Positions 22,603 to 35,628 of a DNA stretch of 64,000 nucleotides are shown here, one piece after another; the stretch's first letter is position 1, and every line of letters starts with the position of its first letter. Location of the stretch: NCBI RefSeq assembly GCF_054482595.1, contig NZ_CM137008.1. The stretch is one strand, 5' to 3'. Position numbers and translations under genes: made by a program. The notes below the pieces were generated by a model. It ran no database searches. It had not been told where the DNA came from and saw only the letters and a list, made by a program, of their open reading frames with translations.

Positions 22603-22912
<310 letters not shown>

Positions 22913-23460: not shown

Positions 23461-23561
23461 CTTTGTTTCCAAACCCGCTGAATAATTTTTAGCGAGTATA
23501 CCTGTAAACGCCGTGGGTGTATTGGGGGCAAGTCCCTTTCGCCCCTGCTTAATAAGGCGCG

Positions 23562-24773
23562 TCAGGCATCGGCACACGGCTGCATTCTTGATCTCCGACT
23601 CATCAAAATAAACACCGCCAACCCCGCAACAAGAATACCCGGTGCAGAAGCGGCCATTACGCCGACCGTGCCAGTGCCTAATGCCAGCATTTTCCCGGCC
23701 AGTAACGGACCGCTCATAGCCCCCAGACGCCCTACCGCCACGGCTGTTCCCACACCTGTTGCGCGGATCTGCGAACTGTAAAACAACGGTGCCAGGGCAT
23801 ACAAAACGCTTTGCCCACCTGTCGCAAACAACCCCGCGACAAATCCCGCCAGCAACATACCGTTAAATGACGACACCGTTCCAAGCGCCAGCAGCGAAGT
23901 TAACATGCCGCTATAAATCAGTAGCGACATGGTTACTGGACGCAGCTTATCCATCAATGCGCCCAACATTAACGTCCCGCTCGCCGCACCCATTTGCAGT
24001 GCAAACATCACCCCTGCCGCCTGCGATGGCTGGAATCCTTGCTCCACCAAAAGCAGCGGTAGCCAGTTGATCAACATGTAAACCACCAGCAGAGTGAAGA
24101 AATAACACAGCCACAGCAGCAGCGTCGCGGTTGCCGTTTCTGGCGCAAATAACGCACGCAGTGGTGGCGCAGCCTGTTTTTCGCCAGCGAAAACCGCCGA
24201 CTCCGGCAGCCAGCGCATTAATAGCGGCACCAGAATCAACGGCACCACACCACCTACCCAAAACACCGTTTGCCATGCTAAGTTTGCCCCCGCGAAACCC
24301 AGTGTCGCCGCCAGCGCCGCGCCAATGGGAACACCGCAATACATCAGGCTCACTGCCGTCCCACGAAAACGTGGACCCGCGGCTTCAGACGTCAGGGCGA
24401 TAAGATTCGGCAACGCCGCCCCCAGCCCGACACCGGTCATCAGCCGCGCAAAGACCAGTGAGGGGAAATCCCAGGCAATCGCCGTTGCCAGTGAGAACAA
24501 ACCAAACAGCGCAACTGAGCCAATCAAAATGCGCTTGCGACCATAACGGTCCGCCAGCATTCCGCCAACCAACGCGCCGGGTAGTAAACCGAGTATTCCG
24601 GCGCTGAATATCCAGCCCATTTGCATTTTATCGAGTGCGAAAGCCTGGGCGATGCCACCCGCCGCAATGCCAGCCGCCTGAAGATCCAGCCCTTCCATCA
24701 GAGCGACCAAAAAACAAAGCCCGATGGTCAGCATCAGGCGGGATGAAGATGATGAAGGGGTACGAGTCGACAT
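23562..24773 (-). CDS. mhpT: MhpT, 3-hydroxyphenylpropionate MFS transporter
   Basis: 403 aa from the internal start MSTRTPSSSSSRLMLTIG. Confidence 0.9.
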   Translation of the reverse strand: MSTRTPSSSSSRLMLTIGLCFLVALMEGLDLQAAGIAAGGIAQAFALDKMQMGWIFSAGILGLLPGALVGGMLADRYGRKRILIGSVALFGLFSLATAIAWDFPSLVFARLMTGVGLGAALPNLIALTSEAAGPRFRGTAVSLMYCGVPIGAALAATLGFAGANLAWQTVFWVGGVVPLILVPLLMRWLPESAVFAGEKQAAPPLRALFAPETATATLLLWLCYFFTLLVVYMLINWLPLLLVEQGFQPSQAAGVMFALQMGAASGTLMLGALMDKLRPVTMSLLIYSGMLTSLLALGTVSSFNGMLLAGFVAGLFATGGQSVLYALAPLFYSSQIRATGVGTAVAVGRLGAMSGPLLAGKMLALGTGTVGVMAASAPGILVAGLAVFILMSRRSRMQPCADA

Positions 24774-24844
24774 AAGATGAACCTCGTTGCGAGTGCAGGT
24801 GAATCGCGACTGATACATTGCCAGCCGCGTAATCAGAACTATTT

Positions 24845-25320
<476 letters not shown>

Positions 25321-25350
25321 ATACAAAATGCACGTTCTCGGCAGTCAATA

Positions 25351-26360
25351 TTATTTGTTGTTGCGCAGATCCAGCGCCACGTCGACGATCATATCCTCCT
25401 GGCCGCCAACCATCCGGCGTTTGCCCAGCTCAACGAGAATATCCACCGCGCTTAAGCCATAACGCGCCGCCGCCGTTTCACAGTGACGCAGGAAGCTGGA
25501 GTAAACACCAGCGTATCCCAGCGCCAGCGTTTCGCGATCGACTCGTACCGGACGATCCTGCAACGGACGCACCAGGTCGTCAGCGGCATCCATTAACGCA
25601 TAGAGATCGGCCCCATGCTGCCAACCCAGTTTATCCACGGCGGCAATAAATACTTCCAGCGGCGCGTTACCTGCGCCCGCGCCCATTCCCGCGAGGCTGG
25701 CGTCGATTCGGTCGCAGCCCTCTTCCACCGCCGCGATAGAGTTCGCCACGCCAAGACTCAGGTTATGGTGAGCGTGCATGCCGGTTTGCGTTTCTGGTTT
25801 CAGCACTGCTTTCAGGGCGCGGAAACGGTCACGGATATCGCTCATGTTCATCGCACCGCCAGAATCCACCACATAAATACAGGTCGCACCGTAGCCTTCC
25901 ATCAGCTTTGCCTGCTTGGCGAGATTCTCCGGCGTGGTCATATGGCTCATCATCAGAAAACCAACGGTGTCCATTCCGAGCTCGCGGGCATACTGAATAT
26001 GCTGGGCGGAAACATCAGCTTCGGTACAGTGCGTTGCCACACGAACCACCCGCGCGCCAGCCTGCCAGGCATTTTTCAGATCGTGAATAGTGCCGATTCC
26101 TGGCAGCAACAACGTCGCGATTTTGGCGTGCTTCACCACATCCGCCGCCGCTTCAATCCATTCAAGGTCGCTATGTGCGCCGAAACCATAGTTAAAGCTG
26201 GAACCCTGCAAACCGTCGCCGTGGGCCACTTCAATCGAATCCACGCGGGCATCGTCCAGTGCTTTGGCAATCTGGCGAACGTTTTCCAGCGAATACTGAT
26301 GACGAATGGCGTGCATACCGTCACGCAACGTGACGTCCGAGATATAAAGTTTTTTACCGT

Positions 26361-26364
<4 letters not shown>
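25351..26364 (-). CDS. mhpE: MhpE, 4-hydroxy-2-oxovalerate aldolase
   Basis: 337-aa ORF. Confidence 0.95.
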
Positions 26365-28126
<1,762 letters not shown>

Positions 28127-28993
28127 TTAAGCACGTGCGAGGAAATTCAGCACCAGTTGATTGAAAGCGTCGGCATGTTCCCACTGCGCCCAGTGACCAC
28201 AGTCGCGGAAGATATGCAGTTCAGAACCAGCAATGCCGGACAGTAGACGCAGCCCCGCATCCATCGGCACAAAGCGGTCGTTGCGCCCCCAGACAATCAG
28301 GGTTTGCGCTTTGATTTCCGCCAGACGTGGGCCAAAATCCGGGAACTGTTTCGGATTAGCTTCCAGGCTCTTAACGAAGTTTTCCAGGTGATCGCGGCGC
28401 GACAGCATATTATTCAGGCGCGCTTCAAACAGGGCGTCGGTCAAATCGCTGGTATCAAAAACGAAGATATCCATCATCAGCTTCAGGTTTTCGATAGTCG
28501 GCTGACGATAAAGCTGATTCAGTCGCTTAATACCTTCGGTTGGCATCGGCGTAAACAAACTCATGCCGCCCGTACCGCCGCCCATCAGCACCAGTTTGCC
28601 GACGCGCTCCGGCCAGTTAAGGGTGAACGCCACAGAACTATGGCCACCCATTGAGTTGCCCAGCAGGTGGATTTTGGCGATATCCAGTTGATCCACCACG
28701 CTTTTCAGGATTCGTGCATTAAGATCCGATCGCGAACCACTATTAACGATCGAATCGCTCTTACCCCAACCCGGACAATCCAGCAGGATCACCCGATAGC
28801 CCGCCTCTACCAGCGGATCGATATTGCGGCTGAAGTTCGCCCAGCCAGTAGCACCCGGGCCGGAACCATGCAGCAGGACAACGGTTTCGTCGCCTTGTCC
28901 GCAGTCATTAAAATGGATGCGCAGCGTTTTACCCGCTTCTTCTACATTCAGAAAACGGCTGGTGGCGGCTTCGGTTTGTGGCTGATAACTCAT
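28127..28993 (-). CDS. mhpC: MhpC, 2-hydroxy-6-oxonona-2,4-dienedioate hydrolase (alpha/beta hydrolase)
   Basis: 288 aa from the internal start [14 protein letters not shown]; GNSMGG nucleophile motif. Confidence 0.93.
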
Positions 28994-29010
28994 CATCTTC
29001 TCCTGCATAT

Positions 29011-29955
29011 TCAGTTCTCTGTTCTGGCGCTTAACGAGCCAAATCCGGCAATCCACTCCGGGATTGGGCGGTAATAACGCCCTTCGCTACGCCAGTTGCC
29101 AAATGCAGAAATAGCGGCAAAAGCGGCGACCCAGGTTTTGATTTCATGTGTCGACTTTCCGGCAATGGCGGAAAGCTCTTCGTTACTGACGGCATCCAGT
29201 TCCTGTATGCGTCCCTGCTCCAGCAAAGTCATGAACTGGTTATCCCAAATCGGGTTGAGCGGATGCAGAGTTCTCTGATCCTCAACAAACTTCTCAGCGG
29301 CGCTAATCACCCGTTGCTGACGCAATTCGCGCTCACTGGCGGGTAAATCTTTCCCGCTCCCCAACAGACGGTCGCGCATATGGGCATCGGCTTTCGCCAG
29401 TTCGGGCACCGGCGGCTGATGGGAAAGCCCACCGGAACCCAGGAACAGCACGCGTTTATTGAGAGTGCTGGTGAAACGTCCAATGGCTTCACCCAACATG
29501 CGGGTACGCTGGAAACCGGGCAGCGGCGTGGCGACACCGTTGATGAACACAGGCAGAACTGGCACCTTATCCAGCCCACCGAGCAGGAACTCCAGCGGCT
29601 GGGCGAACCCGTGGTCCACCTGCATACAGTAAGAAACGGCAAGATCGATCCCGCTCTTCATGACGGCATGCGCACAGGCCTCCGCCAACTCCACAGGCAC
29701 TGGCAGCTCTCCTGCCGCACTACCGAAATCACCAATTGCCGTCGCTCCAACGCCTAAACAGAACGGTGGCATCACGTCATAGAAAAAGCCGTTGTAGTGA
29801 TCTGGCGCAAACAGCACCACCAGTTCAGGGGAGAAAGCCGCAATACGCTCGCGGGCGCTGGCAATCACGCCATCGACCTCATCGAGCACCTCTTGCGCCG
29901 GGTCGACATACCCCACCAGCGGCGAGTGGGAAAGACAGTGAAGATAAGCGTGCAT
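29011..29955 (-). CDS. mhpB: MhpB, 3-(2,3-dihydroxyphenyl)propionate 1,2-dioxygenase (extradiol)
   Basis: 314-aa ORF. Confidence 0.95.
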
Positions 29956-29956
29956 A

Positions 29957-31621
29957 TCAGGCTACCTTTTCGACAGAAACGTCGGCATCAGGGCGGGTCA
30001 GCGTCATCACCGACGCCAGTTTATTCAGGGTCTTGCCCAGGGTTTGCGGAATGGCGGTGGCGGCAACAAAGCGATCCGGGCGCATCACCACCAGCGAAGC
30101 ATTGTGTTGCGCGAACCAGCTACGCAGGCGACCTTGCGTATCCCCCACGCGTAGTACGCCGTCGTGGTTATCCTGTGCGGTATGAATTTGCACTTCCGGC
30201 ACCACCTGAATGAAGCGTGTGCCCAACGCGCGCCACTGCTGGATTTGCTCGTCGCTCATCCCCCACAGTGGATTGCATCCCCAGCCAATTACCGCGAAGT
30301 TCGCGCCGATCGCGTTATCGAGCAGCGTCACGTCGCCGTTTTCCAGCGTGACTTTCGGCTGAATAAACATCTTGCCGACCGGAGAGTGCTTCGCTTCGCC
30401 CTCACGCACCAGCGCACCGCCGTAATATTGCGGCATCGGCTTGAAGCGCATTTCGAGGAAGTAGCGTTTTACTGGCGGCAGATAATTCAGCAGCCAGGAA
30501 ACGCCGTCACGTAACGTACCCTGCCAGCGTTTCGGCGGAGCCAGCACGTTGCCCGCCGTCACGGACAGGTCAATCATCGCTTTGGCGTGATCGCGACGTT
30601 CTTGTTGATAGGTATCGAGCAGCGCATCGCGGGCTTTCCCCTGGATAACCAACGCCAGTTTCCATGCGAGGTTAAAGGCGTCGCGCATGCCACTGTTATA
30701 GCCCTGCCCCTGCCATACCGGCATGATGTGCGCGGCATCGCCCGCCAGCAGTACGCGATCAATACGGAAACGTTGCGCCAGTCGCGCGTTGTGGGTGTAG
30801 ACACGCTGGCGAATCAATTCAACATTGTCCGGATTAGGCAGCACTTTGCTTAACAGCTTGCGCATATTTTGCGGCTCACGCAGCTGTTCTTCGGTTTCTC
30901 CCGGCATCACCATAAATTCAAAGCGACGTACCGCATGAGGCAGCGCGGCAGAAACATACGGGCGCACCGGATCGCAACACAAATAGATATGCGGCGTACT
31001 TAACGGATCGTTGGCGATATCTACCACAATCCACTGATTTGGTGCAGTTTTACCTTCAAACGGCACATTCAGGGTGCGACGGACAAAACTTGCCCCACCA
31101 TCACAGGCCACCAGCCACTGGGCTTTGACTATTTCCCGCTGCCCTTCTGCCGTTTTCAGGTGCAAGGTCACTTCGTCATCTTGCTGACTGAAGGCCTCCA
31201 GCTCGCGGGAAAACAAGCAGCGCACATTCGGAAAACGCGACACCCCTTCCAGCATCACCGCATCGACCTGCGGCTGAATAAAGGCGTTACGGCGCGGCCA
31301 GCCAAATTCATCGGTCATTGGCTGAATATCAGCAAAACAGCGGCCCTTCGGGGTGAGAAAACGCATCGCGTGCCACGGTGTAGTGTGCGGCAGAACATTA
31401 TCGACCAGGCCAACCGACTGCATGGTGCGCAGCGCCTCGTCATCAATACCAATCGCACGCGGGTAGTCGATCAACTTATCGAGTTTCTCCACCACCAGCA
31501 CGTCAATGCCCATCTGGCCGAGATAGTTCGCCATCATCAGTCCGACCGGACCGGCACCAGCGATCGCCACCTGAACGCTATGGTTAACAGCAGGCTGGAT
31601 GTCAGGGTGTTGTATTGCCAT
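29957..31621 (-). CDS. mhpA: MhpA, 3-(3-hydroxyphenyl)propionate hydroxylase (FAD monooxygenase)
   Basis: 554-aa ORF with N-terminal GAGPVG FAD-binding motif. Confidence 0.95.
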
Positions 31622-31762
31622 TTCAGTACCTCACGACTCGGACAAAATGCCGTTGCGCGCACAGTACGGCGCAACTTATTTTGTTAAAAACATGTAAATG
31701 ATTTTTTATTGTGCGCTCAGTATAGGAAGGGTGTTTTCGGCTACAATCAAAACATGCCCGAA

Positions 31763-31779
31763 TGTGCACCAGGTGCACA
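31763..31779. promoter_or_regulatory. Candidate MhpR operator: palindrome TGTGCACC-A-GGTGCACA in the mhpA-mhpR divergent region
   Basis: Perfect 8-bp inverted repeat around a central A; recalled as resembling the published MhpR site. Confidence 0.5.
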
Positions 31780-31811
31780 ACGTTGTTTTAACTATAGAAA
31801 TGTCAATTAAT

Positions 31812-32645
31812 ATGCAGAACAATGAGCAGACGGAATACAAAACCGTGCGCGGCTTAACCCGCGGTCTAATGTTATTAAATATGTTAAATAAACTTGACGG
31901 CGGTGCCAGCGTCGGGCTGCTGGCGGAACTCAGCGGCCTGCATCGCACCACTGTGCGGCGACTGCTGGAGACGCTGCAGGAAGAGGGATATGTCCGGCGT
32001 AGTCCCTCCGATGATAGTTTTCGTCTGACCATCAAAGTGCGGCAATTAAGCGAAGGATTTCGTGACGAACAGTGGATTTCTGCACTGGCGGCCCCACTGC
32101 TGGGCGATCTGTTGCGCGAAGTGGTATGGCCGACAGATGTGTCCACGCTGGATGTTGATGCAATGGTGGTACGCGAAACCACCCACCGTTTCAGCCGCTT
32201 ATCCTTTCACCGGGCAATGGTCGGGCGACGTTTGCCGCTTCTGAAAACCGCCTCGGGCCTGACCTGGCTGGCCTTTTGCCCGGAACAAGAACGCAAGGAA
32301 TTAATCGAAATGTTAGCCTCCCGCCCCGGTGATGACTATCAACTGGCACGAGAACCGTTAAAGCTGCAAGCCATTCTGGCGCGCGCGCGCAAAGAGGGTT
32401 ACGGACAGAACTACCGCGGCTGGGATCAGGAGGAGAAGATCGCCTCTATCGCCGTACCGCTGCGCAGTGAACAACGGGTGATTGGCTGTTTGAATCTGGT
32501 GTATATGGCGAGCGCAATGACCATCGAACAGGCAGCGGAAAAGCATCTTCCGGCACTACAACGGGTAGCAAAACAGATCGAAGAAGGGGTTGAATCGCAG
32601 GCTATTCTGGTGGCCGGACGGCGAAGCGGCGTGCATTTACGCTAG
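31812..32645 (+). CDS. mhpR: MhpR, IclR-family activator of the mhp operon
   Basis: 277 aa from the internal start MQNNEQTEYKTVRGL. Confidence 0.92.
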   Translation: MQNNEQTEYKTVRGLTRGLMLLNMLNKLDGGASVGLLAELSGLHRTTVRRLLETLQEEGYVRRSPSDDSFRLTIKVRQLSEGFRDEQWISALAAPLLGDLLREVVWPTDVSTLDVDAMVVRETTHRFSRLSFHRAMVGRRLPLLKTASGLTWLAFCPEQERKELIEMLASRPGDDYQLAREPLKLQAILARARKEGYGQNYRGWDQEEKIASIAVPLRSEQRVIGCLNLVYMASAMTIEQAAEKHLPALQRVAKQIEEGVESQAILVAGRRSGVHLR

Positions 32646-32759
32646 TTACGCCAATGTGTAATTTGGCCCATTCTCATCGTTATTCGCCCATTTGCCCACA
32701 TGCACAGTACGGGCTGCACGCTACGCTAATGACATCAATACTGTGATGTGGAGCAAATC

Positions 32760-33536
32760 ATGAAAATTACGCAAATTCGTAATGCCACCCAAATTATCCA
32801 ATACGCTGGCAAAACATTTCTTATCGACCCGTTACTCGCGCCTAAAGGAAGTTATCCGGGTTTTGCCGGAACGGCACGCGCAGAAATCCGCAATCCAACG
32901 GTAGAATTACCGTGCGATTTAACAACGTTACTCAACGTTGACGCCCTAATCGTGACTCATTTACATGAAGATCACTGGGACGAAACAGCCTCCCGCGTCG
33001 TCCCTAAAGATAAACTGATTTATGTGCAAAATGAGCAAGATGCTGAATCACTGCATAAACAAGGATTTACACATCTTACCGTACTTACCGATGAGACTAA
33101 ATTTGGCGATATTACTCTGCATAAAACGACAGGGCAGCACGGCTCCGATCGCACCTATGCCGACCCGGCGATGGCGAAGCGTTTAGGCGCAGCCTGCGGC
33201 GTTGTTTTCCAGCACCCGACAGAGAAAACGCTCTATCTGGCTGGCGATACCCTCTGGCGTGACGACGTCGAGGCTACAATGCTAACTTTCCAACCAGAAG
33301 TGGTTGTGTTGAATGCCGGATTTGCGCATGTTCTGGGGCATGGCGCGATAATTATGGGAGCAGAAGATATTCTCAAAACACATTTTACCCTGCCAGAAGC
33401 GCAAATTGTCGCGACACATATGGAGGCCGTAAACCACTGTTTGCTGACGCGTGATGCGCTCAAGGAATACGCCAGAGATAATCAAATTATCGAATTTGTG
33501 AACGTACCAGAAGATGGTGAAACGTTGACATTCTAA
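32760..33536 (+). CDS. MBL-fold metallo-hydrolase (function unknown)
   Basis: 258 aa from MKITQIRNATQ with GGAG RBS; metal-binding motif THLHEDHWDE. Confidence 0.75.
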   Translation: MKITQIRNATQIIQYAGKTFLIDPLLAPKGSYPGFAGTARAEIRNPTVELPCDLTTLLNVDALIVTHLHEDHWDETASRVVPKDKLIYVQNEQDAESLHKQGFTHLTVLTDETKFGDITLHKTTGQHGSDRTYADPAMAKRLGAACGVVFQHPTEKTLYLAGDTLWRDDVEATMLTFQPEVVVLNAGFAHVLGHGAIIMGAEDILKTHFTLPEAQIVATHMEAVNHCLLTRDALKEYARDNQIIEFVNVPEDGETLTF

Positions 33537-33555
33537 TTCGGAGATAAAGAGTGTT

Positions 33556-34509
33556 ATGCGCCCGCTAACTGTTGCCATTATCGCCGTTGCCGGTTTTAGT
33601 CCTTTTCACCTTTCCGTACCGTTTATCGTATTTAGCGAAAAAATGGCGGAGAAAAAACACTTTCACGTAATTATCTGCGCTGAAAAGCCGGGAAACGTGG
33701 ACTCTGCCGATGGGTTTTCCGTAACCGCCACCCATGACTATACCGCAGTCATCCAGGCGGATATTGTGATAATTCCTTACTGGGGAACCATTACACAAAA
33801 ACCGCCACAAAAACTGCTGGAAGCCTTAACGACCGCACGGGATAACGGCGCACAGATTGTCGGGCTTTGCCTGGGCACGTTTGTGCTCGGCTATGCAGGT
33901 TTACTGAAAAATAAGCGTGCCGCCACGCACTGGGAGTTCGAGCGTGAATTTCAGGCACGTTTTCCACAAACACATCTGGATATTAACGCGTTGTACGTAG
34001 ACGATGACGGCATTATTACCTCTGCCGGTACTGCCGCGGCGCTGGATTGCTGTTTGTATATTGTTCGGCAACATTTTGGCAGCGACTATGCTAACCATAT
34101 TGCCCGACGGATGGTCGTACCGCCATATCGCACTGGCGGTCAGGCGCAGTTTATTGAGCAACCAGTGCCGAAAAATACCCATGATGAACGCATTAATCTC
34201 CTGCTGGATTACCTGCGGCAAAACATTGCGCAACAGCATGATCTCGACTCGCTGGCGCAGCGAGTAATGATGAGTCGCCGCACATTAACTCGCCATTTTA
34301 TGAAAGCGACCGGTTCGAGTATCGCCGAATGGCTTATTACTGAACGCTTACGCCGTAGCCAGGAACTGTTGGGATCCAGTCAATTGCCCGTTGAGCGGAT
34401 AGCAGCTGAGGTGGGTTTTCTCTCACCTGTGACCTGGCGTCAGCATTTTAAATCTCACTTCGGCGTCAGCCCCGCCGAATGGCGCAAAACCTTTCGCGGT
34501 ATGGCATGA
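33556..34509 (+). CDS. GlxA-family transcriptional regulator (DJ-1/PfpI-like N-terminal domain plus AraC-type HTH)
   Basis: 317-aa ORF; C-terminal AraC HTH; its last codons overlap the lacI promoter. Confidence 0.75.
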   Translation: MRPLTVAIIAVAGFSPFHLSVPFIVFSEKMAEKKHFHVIICAEKPGNVDSADGFSVTATHDYTAVIQADIVIIPYWGTITQKPPQKLLEALTTARDNGAQIVGLCLGTFVLGYAGLLKNKRAATHWEFEREFQARFPQTHLDINALYVDDDGIITSAGTAAALDCCLYIVRQHFGSDYANHIARRMVVPPYRTGGQAQFIEQPVPKNTHDERINLLLDYLRQNIAQQHDLDSLAQRVMMSRRTLTRHFMKATGSSIAEWLITERLRRSQELLGSSQLPVERIAAEVGFLSPVTWRQHFKSHFGVSPAEWRKTFRGMA

Positions 34510-34510
34510 T
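34482..34510 (+). promoter_or_regulatory. lacI promoter (-35 GCGCAA, 17-bp spacer, -10 CATGAT)
   Basis: Sequence GAATGGCGCAAAACCTTTCGCGGTATGGCATGATAGCGCCCGG matches the lacI promoter as recalled; lies inside the 3' end of the upstream regulator gene. Confidence 0.75.
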
Positions 34511-34545
34511 AGCGCCCGGAAGAGAGTCAATTCAGGGTGGTGAAT

Positions 34546-35628
34546 GTGAAACCAGTAACGCTATACGATGTCGCAGAGTATGCCGGTGTCTCTTATCAGA
34601 CCGTTTCCCGCGTGGTGAATCAGGCCAGCCACGTTTCTGCGAAAACGCGGGAAAAAGTGGAAGCGGCGATGGCGGAGCTGAATTACATTCCCAACCGCGT
34701 GGCACAACAACTGGCGGGGAAACAGTCGTTGCTGATTGGCGTTGCCACCTCCAGTCTGGCCCTGCACGCGCCGTCGCAAATTGTCGCGGCGATTAAATCT
34801 CGCGCCGATCAACTGGGTGCCAGCGTGGTGGTGTCGATGGTAGAACGAAGCGGCGTCGAAGCCTGTAAAGCGGCGGTGCACAATCTTCTCGCGCAACGCG
34901 TCAGTGGGCTGATCATTAACTATCCGCTGGATGACCAGGATGCCATTGCTGTGGAAGCTGCCTGCGCTAATGTTCCGGCGTTATTTCTTGATGTCTCTGA
35001 CCAGACTCCCATCAACAGTATTATTTTCTCCCATGAAGACGGTACGCGACTGGGCGTGGAGCATCTGGTCGCATTGGGTCACCAGCAAATCGCGCTGTTA
35101 GCGGGCCCATTAAGTTCTGTCTCGGCGCGTCTGCGTCTGGCGGGCTGGCATAAATATCTCACTCGCAATCAAATTCAGCCGATAGCGGAACGGGAGGGCG
35201 ACTGGAGTGCCATGTCCGGTTTTCAACAAACCATGCAAATGCTAAATGAGGGCATCGTTCCCACTGCGATGCTGGTTGCCAACGATCAGATGGCGCTGGG
35301 CGCAATGCGCGCCATTACCGAGTCCGGGTTGCGCGTTGGTGCGGATATCTCGGTAGTGGGATACGACGATACCGAAGACAGCTCGTGTTATATCCCGCCG
35401 TTAACCACCATCAAACAGGATTTTCGCCTGCTGGGGCAAACCAGCGTGGACCGCTTGCTGCAACTCTCTCAGGGCCTGGCGGTGAAGGGCAATCAGCTTT
35501 TGCCCGTCTCTCTGGTGAAAAGAAAAACCACCCTGGCGCCCAAGACGCAAACCGCTTCTCCCCGCGCGTTGGCCGATTCATTAATGCAGCTGGCACGACA
35601 AGTTTCCCGACTGGAAAGCGGGCAGTGA
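34546..35628 (+). CDS. lacI: LacI, lactose repressor
   Basis: 360 codons from the canonical GTG (VKPVTLYDVAEYAGVSYQTVSRVVNQ...); the track ORF begins 3 codons upstream. Confidence 0.97.
   Translation: MKPVTLYDVAEYAGVSYQTVSRVVNQASHVSAKTREKVEAAMAELNYIPNRVAQQLAGKQSLLIGVATSSLALHAPSQIVAAIKSRADQLGASVVVSMVERSGVEACKAAVHNLLAQRVSGLIINYPLDDQDAIAVEAACANVPALFLDVSDQTPINSIIFSHEDGTRLGVEHLVALGHQQIALLAGPLSSVSARLRLAGWHKYLTRNQIQPIAEREGDWSAMSGFQQTMQMLNEGIVPTAMLVANDQMALGAMRAITESGLRVGADISVVGYDDTEDSSCYIPPLTTIKQDFRLLGQTSVDRLLQLSQGLAVKGNQLLPVSLVKRKTTLAPKTQTASPRALADSLMQLARQVSRLESGQ

What the first reader, a model, noticed from the sequence alone, without database searches (positions are those of the whole stretch)
32646..34545. 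Two-gene insert (MBL-fold hydrolase + GlxA/AraC regulator) between mhpR and lacI; the lacI promoter lies inside the regulator's 3' end
As I recall K-12, mhpR and lacI are under 100 bp apart; here about 1.9 kb with two plus-strand genes intervenes. The lacI -35 and -10 hexamers (34482-34510) fall within the last codons of the GlxA-like gene (...AEWRKTFRGMA, stop TGA at 34507-34509 inside the -10). This suggests the K-12 lacI promoter region is a relic of this gene's 3' end left by a deletion. It also means transcription reading through the regulator gene could run into lacI. The hydrolase/regulator pair has no obvious substrate assignment.
Basis: partly seen in the sequence, partly recalled or inferred. 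Interest (0 to 1): 0.5.

Follow-up and report, generated by a model that had tools for sequence, protein, structure and literature searches.

The report
Detox gene pair carrying lacI promoter
Between mhpR and lacI this E. coli keeps a two-gene module that K-12 has lost (known in O157:H7 as O-island 19: regulator OvrA plus an enzyme that looks like an isothiocyanate hydrolase), and the classic lacI promoter is simply the last codons of that regulator gene.

Summary
Window 32760-33536 encodes an MBL-fold hydrolase and 33556-34509 a DJ-1/AraC (GlxA-type) regulator, between mhpR and lacI. The lacI -35 (34482-87) and -10 (34505-10) lie in the regulator's last nine codons. The segment is already known as O-island 19 of EHEC O157:H7 (z0443 + z0442/ovrA; OvrA is published as a LEE1 activator).

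What the tools add:
1. The segment looks ancestral, not inserted. Citrobacter species have the same MBL-ovrA-lacI-lacZ order, and C. sedlakii has the identical overlap.
2. Of 5426 complete E. coli genomes, 435 keep it. 4397 carry a K-12-type deletion that leaves 34 nt of ovrA. 487 carry an independent Nissle-type deletion that leaves 99 nt.
3. z0443, called "unknown" in EHEC reviews, is 54% identical over its full length to the crystallised isothiocyanate hydrolase SaxA, with all metal ligands conserved.
4. The hydrolase-regulator pair and an upstream GGCCCRAT element are conserved across Proteobacteria.

Read-through into lacI is plausible but untested. The locus is known; the evolutionary reading and the enzyme assignment are modest new points.

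The parts
31812..32645 (+). mhpR (IclR-type regulator of the mhp operon). Stop is TAG here, TGA in K-12 and TAA in strain 504838.
32663..32701 (+). Predicted operator of the GlxA-type regulator: TTGGCCCATTCTCATCGTTATTCGCCCATTTGCCCACAT. It holds two GCCCATT direct repeats 20 bp apart and abuts the -35 position of the hydrolase promoter.
   Evidence: Nearly identical in 14 Citrobacter loci, Kluyvera and E. hormaechei. The GGCCCRAT core sits at a fixed distance in 39 of 64 loci and is 47-fold enriched. Binding is inferred.
32721..32727 (+). Predicted sigma-S/sigma-70 -10 element CTACGCT of the hydrolase-regulator operon.
   Evidence: Same position (19 nt after the operator) as CTACGAT in Citrobacter, although the spacer is not conserved. 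Z0443 is 10-fold RpoS-dependent in EDL933 (PMC2907692). Inferred; no TSS data.
32760..33536 (+). SaxA-like MBL-fold metallo-hydrolase (orthologue of O157:H7 z0443); predicted isothiocyanate hydrolase.
   Evidence: PDB 6BRM SaxA E=4e-88 over full length. 53.9% identity. H67/H69/D71/H72/H127/D163/H220 conserved in 66 homologues. Pfam Lactamase_B_2.
33556..34509 (+). ovrA (z0442 orthologue): GlxA-family regulator with an N-terminal DJ-1/PfpI domain and a C-terminal AraC double HTH.
   Evidence: reviews PMC8565820 and PMC10877973
34482..34487 (+). lacI promoter -35 GCGCAA, inside ovrA codons W309-R310-K311.
   Evidence: Identical to K-12. Hexamer assignment is from Calos 1978 (from memory; cited in PMC7049694).
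34505..34510 (+). lacI promoter -10 CATGAT, containing the ovrA stop codon TGA (34507-34509).
34476..34509 (+). The part of ovrA (last 11 codons, E W R K T F R G M A stop) that survives in K-12-type genomes as the 'lacI promoter region'.
32639..34475 (.). Interval missing in K-12-type genomes (4397 of 5426), replaced by 11 nt. Short direct repeats ACGCCAATG (32650-58) and CCGCCGAATG (34470-79) lie at its ends.
23526..34410 (.). Interval missing in Nissle/CH4811-type genomes (487 of 5426): mhpT through mhpR, the hydrolase gene and most of ovrA. The junction carries a 1-nt filler.
34546..35628 (+). lacI (GTG start), 36 nt after the ovrA stop. The expected TSS is near 34518.
   Evidence: TSS position from Calos 1978 (memory)

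Best explanation
The interval is O-island 19. It is a small chromosomal operon made of a SaxA-type isothiocyanate hydrolase gene followed by its own GlxA/AraC-type regulator, OvrA.

Evolution (largely shown):
- The operon was already next to lacI-lacZ in the common ancestor of Escherichia and Citrobacter.
- lacI never had an intergenic promoter of its own. Its weak constitutive promoter sits in the last nine codons and stop codon of ovrA.
- Most E. coli later lost the module through two independent deletions. Both stop just upstream of the lacI -35, so K-12's 'lacI promoter region' is the surviving 3' end of ovrA.

Function in strains that keep the module, such as this one (inferred):
- OvrA binds the conserved direct-repeat operator at 32663-32701.
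- It activates an RpoS-dependent promoter to make the hydrolase and itself in response to electrophilic isothiocyanates. Sensing may go through the invariant DJ-1-type Cys105.
- With no terminator before lacI, part of this transcription may continue into lacI.

The published LEE1-activating role of OvrA in EHEC would then be a secondary co-option of an older detoxification regulator.
For: Shown:
- Identity with OI-19/ovrA: PGAP naming, 98.7% identity to O157:H7, and the reviews.
- Full 1.74-kb core in 435 of 5426 genomes, always chromosomal and single copy, with 97.5-100% identity, like the flanking core genes.
- K-12-type junction in 4397 genomes and Nissle-type junction in 487, with different right ends inside ovrA (34476 versus 34411) and different left ends.
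- The order MBL-OvrA-LacI-LacZ (mhpA/mhpR upstream where the locus reaches them) in Citrobacter loci at 76-84% amino-acid identity. C. sedlakii has the identical ...RGMA-TGA/-10 overlap 31 nt before lacI.
- Citrobacter species with a methyltransferase gene inserted after ovrA still carry a second, decayed copy of the ovrA tail in front of lacI (L007 z=7.5, L005 z=5.1).
- No flanking repeats or mobility genes.
- Hydrolase matches SaxA 6BRM at E=4e-88, 53.9% identity, with all MBL metal ligands conserved.
- The hydrolase is adjacent to the regulator in 64 of 80 fetched loci across Gamma-, Beta- and Deltaproteobacteria and on plasmids.
- GGCCCRAT sits at a fixed position in 39 of 64 loci, 2.5 per kb against 0.05 per kb elsewhere.
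- Cys105 is invariant in 81 homologues and aligns with the catalytic Cys of isocyanide hydratase.
- Z0443 is 10-fold RpoS-dependent (PMC2907692).
- No terminator-like site between the ovrA stop and lacI.

From the literature: SaxA hydrolyses isothiocyanates to amine plus carbonyl sulfide, and activity is reported for all five SaxA clusters (PMC7036374).
Against: - The K-12-type junction is not a clean repeat-mediated product. Its 11 nt (TTGACACCATC) differ at most positions from the predicted CTAGTTACGCC, and at least three alleles exist.
- No other Escherichia species representative carried the module, so 'ancestral' rests on the Citrobacter synteny.
- The hydrolase gene has lower GC (47.6%) than its flanks (56%).
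- Isothiocyanate hydrolysis has not been tested for this clade. Induction by isothiocyanates, OvrA binding to the conserved element and Cys-based sensing are all inference.
- The published OvrA site at LEE1 (GACATTTAATGATAATG) bears no resemblance to the conserved GC-rich element.
- Homology of OvrA to Pseudomonas SaxC was not tested.
- A weak terminator-like hairpin lies inside ovrA (34036-34053), though such sites are no more frequent than in shuffled sequence.
Confidence: 0.8

Rival explanations
1. Classical O-island view: the two genes are a horizontally acquired island inserted between mhpR and lacI in the O157:H7-like lineages, and K-12 shows the original state.
For: - The segment was defined as an O157-specific island relative to K-12 (PMC8565820).
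- Only 8% of complete genomes carry it.
- The hydrolase GC of 47.6% is below the flanks.
- Related hydrolase-regulator pairs travel on plasmids.
- No other Escherichia species representative has it.
Against: - K-12 and Nissle-type genomes retain in-frame 3' fragments of ovrA of different lengths (34 and 99 nt), identical to the intact gene. An insertion cannot create these.
- The same gene order is found in Citrobacter, with divergence like that of lacI and lacZ.
- There are no integrase, tRNA, target duplication or terminal repeats.
- Allelic diversity within E. coli (97.5-100%) equals that of the flanking core genes.
Confidence: 0.05
2. The module is real and ancestral but is not about isothiocyanates. 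The hydrolase acts on another substrate (a lactone, ester or other electrophile), and OvrA's relevant role is the published one: activating LEE1/ler in attaching-effacing strains.
For: - OvrA is reported to bind LEE1 and promote adherence and colonisation, while deleting z0443 had no virulence phenotype (PMC8565820, PMC10877973).
- No curated NCBIfam model for SaxA matched; the only hit is a weak generic 'metal-dependent hydrolase' (53 bits against a cutoff of 144).
- MBL-fold enzymes are notoriously diverse in substrate.
- 54% identity does not guarantee the same substrate.
Against: - Full-length homology to a biochemically and structurally characterised isothiocyanate hydrolase.
- The literature states that activity is preserved across all five SaxA clusters, including those not from plant pathogens (PMC7036374).
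- The pair and its operator are conserved in many bacteria that have no LEE. The 100%-identical strain XH990 is a urine isolate.
- The LEE is a later acquisition, so it cannot be the ancestral target.
Confidence: 0.2
3. In OI-19-positive strains lacI is mainly the third gene of a hydrolase-ovrA-lacI operon, so the embedded sigma-70 hexamers matter little. The K-12 promoter became important only after the deletion.
For: - All three genes (and mhpR) are co-directional, with a 19-nt and a 36-nt gap and no terminator-like site after ovrA or after mhpR.
- The -35 GCGCAA is a poor match to consensus.
Against: - Three independent rearrangements all preserved the same 34 nt or more in front of lacI: the K-12-type deletion, the Nissle-type deletion and the Citrobacter methyltransferase insertion. 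This argues that the promoter was already needed.
- The hexamers are invariant among divergent intact alleles, which differ only at synonymous spacer positions.
- There is no expression data either way.
Confidence: 0.15

Closest known systems
O-island 19 (OI-19) of EHEC O157:H7 EDL933: z0442 (ovrA) + z0443 (Perna 2001; Liu et al. 2020, J Infect Dis 221:820)
   Same: Same locus, same two genes, 98.7% nucleotide identity. PGAP names the regulator OvrA. Reported size of 1834 bp against the 1837-bp interval missing in K-12.
   Different: The literature treats it as an O157-specific island with a virulence regulator and an 'unidentified protein'. Here it is in a strain whose 100%-identical match is a urine isolate. 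It appears ancestral, and z0443 gets a specific enzyme assignment. In the papers I could read, the overlap with the lacI promoter is not mentioned.
SaxA isothiocyanate hydrolases (PDB 6BRM; Welte 2016; van den Bosch 2018, 2019) and the sax genes of Pseudomonas syringae (Fan 2011)
   Same: Full-length 54% identity. HxHxDH and the other metal ligands are conserved. A transcriptional regulator gene is adjacent, as saxC is listed with saxA. Plasmid-borne copies also exist.
   Different: Chromosomal, in a gut commensal or pathogen rather than a plant pathogen or insect-gut isolate. No saxB or efflux genes nearby. Activity is untested for this orthologue. Relationship of OvrA to SaxC was not tested.
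GlxA-family regulators (DJ-1/PfpI + AraC HTH), e.g. FtrA, GbdR, CdhR
   Same: Same two-domain architecture. Best NCBIfam hit is FtrA (324.6 bits).
   Different: Below the FtrA equivalog cutoff of 425, so it is not FtrA. It is linked to an MBL hydrolase rather than to amine or quaternary-amine catabolic genes.
The lacI promoter of K-12 (Calos 1978) and its lacIq up-mutation
   Same: Identical sequence from 34476 to the lacI start.
   Different: Here the promoter is coding DNA. The lacIq change GCGCAA to GTGCAA would be Arg310Cys at an Arg conserved in at least 97% of 81 OvrA homologues. That gives a possible reason why the natural promoter stayed weak.

Membership tests
O-island 19 / OvrA | Same chromosomal position (between mhpR and lacI) and near-identity to the O157:H7 z0442/z0443 genes | tested here: met
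   98.7-99.0% identity to O157:H7 genomes; PGAP label 'OI-19-encoded virulence regulator OvrA'
O-island 19 / OvrA | Binds the LEE1 promoter and activates ler | not testable with these tools
   Published for EHEC only (PMC8565820). The window does not show whether this strain has a LEE.
SaxA-type isothiocyanate hydrolase | Full-length sequence homology to a characterised SaxA | tested here: met
   6BRM E=4.1e-88, residues 1-258 against 1-259; 139/258 identical
SaxA-type isothiocyanate hydrolase | MBL-fold metal ligands (HxHxDH, then His, Asp, His) | tested here: met
   H67, H69, D71, H72, H127, D163 and H220 at least 97% conserved in 66 sequences including 6BRM
SaxA-type isothiocyanate hydrolase | Hydrolyses isothiocyanates to amine plus carbonyl sulfide | not testable with these tools
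   Enzyme assay needed
sax locus (saxA with regulator saxC) | Regulator gene adjacent to saxA | tested here: met
   MBL homologue adjacent to the OvrA homologue in 64 of 80 loci, co-directional or divergent; also on plasmids
sax locus (saxA with regulator saxC) | Regulator homologous to Pseudomonas syringae SaxC | not tested
Papers read describe SaxC only as a transcriptional regulator.
GlxA-family (DJ-1/PfpI + AraC) regulator | N-terminal DJ-1/PfpI domain and C-terminal double AraC HTH | tested here: met
   PF01965 residues 6-171 at 3e-12; PF12833 residues 233-311 at 3e-19
FtrA (NCBIfam NF006902 equivalog) | Score at or above the curated cutoff (425 bits) | tested here: not met
   324.6 bits
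Horizontally acquired genomic island | Mobility genes, tRNA or att site, or flanking direct/inverted repeats | tested here: not met
   Only the two genes are present; no terminal repeats
Horizontally acquired genomic island | Absent from the same locus in related genera | tested here: not met
   Present at the same locus in at least 14 Citrobacter species representatives
Horizontally acquired genomic island | Atypical base composition | tested here: inconclusive
   GC 47.6% and 51.0% against 56% in the flanks and 52.7% for the window
lacI promoter (P_lacI) | Same -35, spacer and -10 as the mapped K-12 promoter | tested here: met
   Identical from 34476 onward
lacI promoter (P_lacI) | Transcription start in this strain | not testable with these tools
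   Needs 5' RACE or dRNA-seq

The most novel reading that the evidence does not exclude
The lac repressor's promoter was exapted from the coding 3' end of an isothiocyanate-responsive regulator gene. Two consequences would follow.
1. Its well-known weakness would be a constraint of overlapping a conserved WRK motif, since the lacIq change equals OvrA R310C.
2. In the roughly 8% of E. coli that keep the module (including O157:H7), LacI dosage would be coupled by read-through to RpoS and dietary isothiocyanate signals. That would link lactose regulation to a plant-toxin response.
Probability: 0.25. Interest if true: 0.55.

Novelty: already known. Interest (0 to 1): 0.4.

Why it matters
- **Reclassification.** A segment listed for 25 years as an O157-specific 'island' becomes ancestral DNA that K-12 lost.
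- **Testable enzyme function.** EHEC reviews still call z0443 unknown. Detoxifying isothiocyanates from cruciferous plants is relevant to gut and cattle-feed ecology.
- **Native role for OvrA.** It suggests OvrA's original job is controlling that enzyme rather than the LEE.
- **Origin of P_lacI.** One of the most copied pieces of DNA in molecular biology, the lacI promoter fragment on expression vectors, turns out to be the last 11 codons of an AraC-family regulator gene. This may also explain why the promoter is weak.
- **Limits.** None of this overturns current understanding, and the locus itself is already described.

Tried and rejected
1. **Origin of the 11-nt K-12 junction filler.** A 9-mer match (ACGTTGACA) at the end of the hydrolase gene shares only 6 nt beyond the flank, so I judged it chance. 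A simple repeat-mediated product has the right length but the wrong sequence. This stays unresolved.
2. **Mobile-element signatures around the segment.** None found.
3. **Terminators between mhpR, the operon and lacI.** None at the gene ends. The total count is not above shuffles.
4. **Literature on mhpR/lacI deletion, lacI promoter evolution, saxA with O157, and z0442/z0443.** Nothing links the lacI promoter to ovrA, or z0443 to SaxA. The primary papers were not held: Liu 2020, van den Bosch 2018, Welte 2016.
5. **Domain nature of Pseudomonas SaxC from papers.** Not stated, so membership was left untested.
6. **A CRP-lacI preprint.** It did not bear on the question.
7. **Not attempted.** Phylogroup assignment of the three locus states.
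Full report
**What is there**

Reading the window gives four co-directional genes:
- mhpR, 31812-32645
- a 258-aa MBL-fold hydrolase gene, 32760-33536
- a 317-aa regulator gene, 33556-34509
- lacI, from the canonical GTG at 34546

Pfam finds Lactamase_B_2 in the first protein and DJ-1_PfpI plus the AraC double helix-turn-helix in the second. NCBIfam's best model for the regulator is FtrA, but the score of 324.6 bits is below its 425-bit cutoff.

The regulator ends ...AEWRKTFRGMA with TGA at 34507-34509. GCGCAA lies at 34482-34487 and CATGAT at 34505-34510. From 34476 to lacI the DNA is identical to K-12. In K-12 the mhpR-lacI gap is 76 bp.

**It is a known locus**

A megablast of the 1.74-kb core against 5426 complete E. 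coli genomes finds it in 435. It is always chromosomal and single copy, at 97.5-100% identity. Carriers include O157:H7, O55:H7 and O145:H28. Recent PGAP annotations call the regulator 'ovrA: OI-19-encoded virulence regulator OvrA'.

Two reviews (PMC8565820, PMC10877973) describe O-island 19 as 1834 bp with z0442 (ovrA) and z0443. OvrA is reported (Liu et al. [quoted passage not shown] The primary paper is not held.

**Polarity: a loss in K-12, not a gain here**

Three lines of evidence agree.

1. *Remnants.* K-12-type genomes match the window up to 32638, then carry 11 nt, then resume at 34476. They therefore keep exactly the last 11 codons of ovrA. A second class (e.g. CH4811, Nissle 1917) joins the yaiL-mhpT spacer (window 23525) to 34411 with one extra base. 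This deletes the whole mhp cluster, the hydrolase gene and most of ovrA, but keeps 99 nt of ovrA, which PGAP annotates as a GlxA-family pseudogene missing its N-terminus. Junction-spanning queries count the states below.

| Locus state | Genomes (of 5426) |
|---|---|
| Intact module | 435 |
| K-12-type deletion | 4397 |
| Nissle-type deletion | 487 |
| Other | about 107 |

2. *Synteny outside the species.* A scan of one genome per species with OvrA returned Citrobacter representatives at 76-80% identity as the best hits. tblastn shows MBL-OvrA-LacI-LacZ in 13 of those 14 Citrobacter loci (L006 has no LacI hit), with mhpA and/or mhpR detected upstream in eight. The module's divergence (76-81%) is like that of LacI and LacZ (79-84%). 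C. sedlakii has the same compact layout. Its ovrA also ends ...RGMA-TGA inside CATGAT, 31 nt before lacI.

3. *No island signatures.* There are no mobility genes or terminal repeats. Composition is only mildly lower in GC: 47.6% and 51.0% against 56% in the flanks.

**A third rearrangement tells the same story**

In the Citrobacter freundii complex a 202-aa SAM-methyltransferase-like gene, convergent with ovrA, sits between ovrA and lacI. ovrA there ends ...FRGV or ...FRGD. Immediately upstream of lacI there is still a second, decayed copy of the ovrA tail (CAAAACC...TGGCAT[G/C]ATAGCGC). It is clear in L007 (33 of 40 gapless, z=7.5) and L005 (z=5.1), and weaker in others.

So three independent events all preserved the same stretch in front of lacI. 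That is what one expects if the promoter was already functional inside ovrA before Escherichia and Citrobacter separated.

**Unresolved detail at the K-12 junction**

Short direct repeats flank the missing interval: ACGCCAATG at 32650-58 and CCGCCGAATG at 34470-79. Recombination between them would leave 11 nt, the observed length. The observed 11 nt differ from the prediction, however, and occur in at least three alleles with three different mhpR stop codons.

| Sequence | 11 nt at the junction | mhpR stop |
|---|---|---|
| K-12 | TTGACACCATC | TGA |
| Strain AVS0969 | CTGACACCATC | TGA |
| Strain 504838 | TTAATGCCGCC | TAA |
| Predicted from the repeats | CTAGTTACGCC | TAG (as in intact strains) |

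About 178 records fall in the 90-95% identity band for this junction. I cannot say whether this reflects one old deletion followed by unusual divergence, or several events.

**What the two genes probably do**

The hydrolase matches the crystallised 'metal-dependent isothiocyanate hydrolase SaxA' (PDB 6BRM) over its whole length, at E=4e-88 and 53.9% identity. The HxHxDH motif and the later His/Asp/His ligands are conserved in 66 homologues.

SaxA converts isothiocyanates to the amine and carbonyl sulfide. It is a virulence factor of Pectobacterium on Brassica, is widespread in Enterobacterales, and is reported to be active in all five sequence clusters (PMC7036374). In Pseudomonas the sax genes include a regulator, saxC (PMC12903958).

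The hydrolase-regulator pairing is general:
- In 64 of the 80 loci fetched with OvrA, an MBL homologue is the immediate neighbour. It is co-directional in Enterobacteriaceae, Erwinia, Aeromonas, Geomonas and Vibrio. It is divergent in Burkholderiales, Marinobacter and Halomonas.
- E. coli IncY plasmids and an E. hormaechei replicon carry a 64-66% identical hydrolase followed by a 58-67% identical regulator.

**A conserved cis-element ties the pair together**

Upstream of the hydrolase gene, E. coli and Citrobacter share TTGGCCCA[A/T]TC[T/C]CATCG...TCGCCCATTTGCCCACAT (window 32663-32701). In E. coli this gives two GCCCATT repeats 20 bp apart.

The core GGCCCRAT occurs at -95 to -105 from the start codon in co-directional loci and at -195 to -199 in divergent ones. 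It is present in 39 of 64 loci, at 2.5 per kb against 0.05 per kb in the rest of the same loci.

Nineteen nucleotides downstream, at a conserved distance but across unconserved sequence, lies CTACGCT (CTACGAT in Citrobacter). This resembles a sigma-S-type -10 and fits the 10-fold RpoS dependence of Z0443 in EDL933 (PMC2907692).

I infer a class-II AraC-type activator site for OvrA. This is not shown. The element does not resemble the AT-rich LEE1 site published for OvrA.

**Possible sensing mechanism (inference only)**

The closest solved relatives of OvrA's DJ-1 domain are isocyanide hydratases. OvrA Cys105 aligns with their catalytic cysteine. Cys105 and a Cys165-Cys166 pair are invariant in 81 homologues. 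Isothiocyanates are thiol-reactive electrophiles, so covalent sensing is an attractive hypothesis.

**Consequences for lacI**

The -35 hexamer is the third base of Trp309, all of Arg310 and two bases of Lys311. Arg310 is conserved in at least 97% of homologues. The -10 is the end of the variable tail plus the stop codon.

As I recall it, the lacIq up-mutation is GCGCAA to GTGCAA. The T variant is found at 100% identity only in engineered strains with a second lacI copy. In the ovrA frame that change would be Arg310Cys. While ovrA was intact, stronger -35 variants were probably selected against, which may be why the natural promoter is weak.

No terminator-like site separates ovrA (or mhpR) from lacI. 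Read-through from the RpoS-dependent operon into lacI is therefore possible but untested.

**Verdict**

The locus is already known as OI-19/ovrA. The papers I could search do not appear to state the following:
- the segment is ancestral
- two independent deletions and one insertion all spared the ovrA tail that is the lacI promoter
- z0443 is a SaxA-type enzyme
- the pair has a conserved operator

Interest is moderate.

Noticed in passing
window 22603-22911 and 24867-25309: Two tandem arrays of 100/101-bp REP/BIME-like units (3.1 and 4.4 copies, in opposite orientation) flank mhpT. The Nissle-type deletion starts 36 nt beyond the mhpT stop, between them.
   Followed up: partly
L011 6948-7556 (minus strand); also L004-L013, L016, L017: Citrobacter freundii-complex species carry a 202-aa class-I SAM methyltransferase-like gene, convergent with ovrA, inserted between ovrA and lacI. 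C. sedlakii (L014) lacks it, and C. youngae ATCC 29220 (L015) has only 149 bp there.
   Followed up: partly
L088 3501-5692 (E. coli IncY plasmid pTET-GZEC065); L089 3501-5259 (E. hormaechei): A second saxA-like gene (64-66% identical) with its own GlxA-type regulator (58-67% identical) travels on plasmids, followed on the IncY plasmid by a SnoaL-like 'ester cyclase'. 128 Escherichia plasmid records hit.
   Followed up: partly
L001 1640-1652, L090 and L091 (K-12-type junctions); window 32639-32660 and 34465-34480: The 11-nt junction left by the K-12-type deletion exists in at least three alleles with three different mhpR stop codons (TGA, TAA, against TAG in intact strains). That is far more substitutions than in the ~98%-identical flanks.
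   Followed up: partly
window 33868-33870 (Cys105) and 34048-34053 (Cys165-Cys166) of ovrA: The DJ-1-domain cysteine aligned with the catalytic Cys of isocyanide hydratase, and a vicinal Cys-Cys pair, are invariant in 81 homologues.
   Followed up: partly
window 32665-32672: All E. coli alleles examined have GGCCCATT where Citrobacter, Kluyvera and many distant loci have GGCCCAAT in the conserved upstream element. In E. coli this makes the two half-sites perfect GCCCATT repeats.
   Followed up: no
window 34483: The lacIq-type C-to-T change in the lacI -35 would be Arg310Cys in OvrA. The T variant is seen at 100% identity only in engineered strains with two lacI copies.
   Followed up: partly
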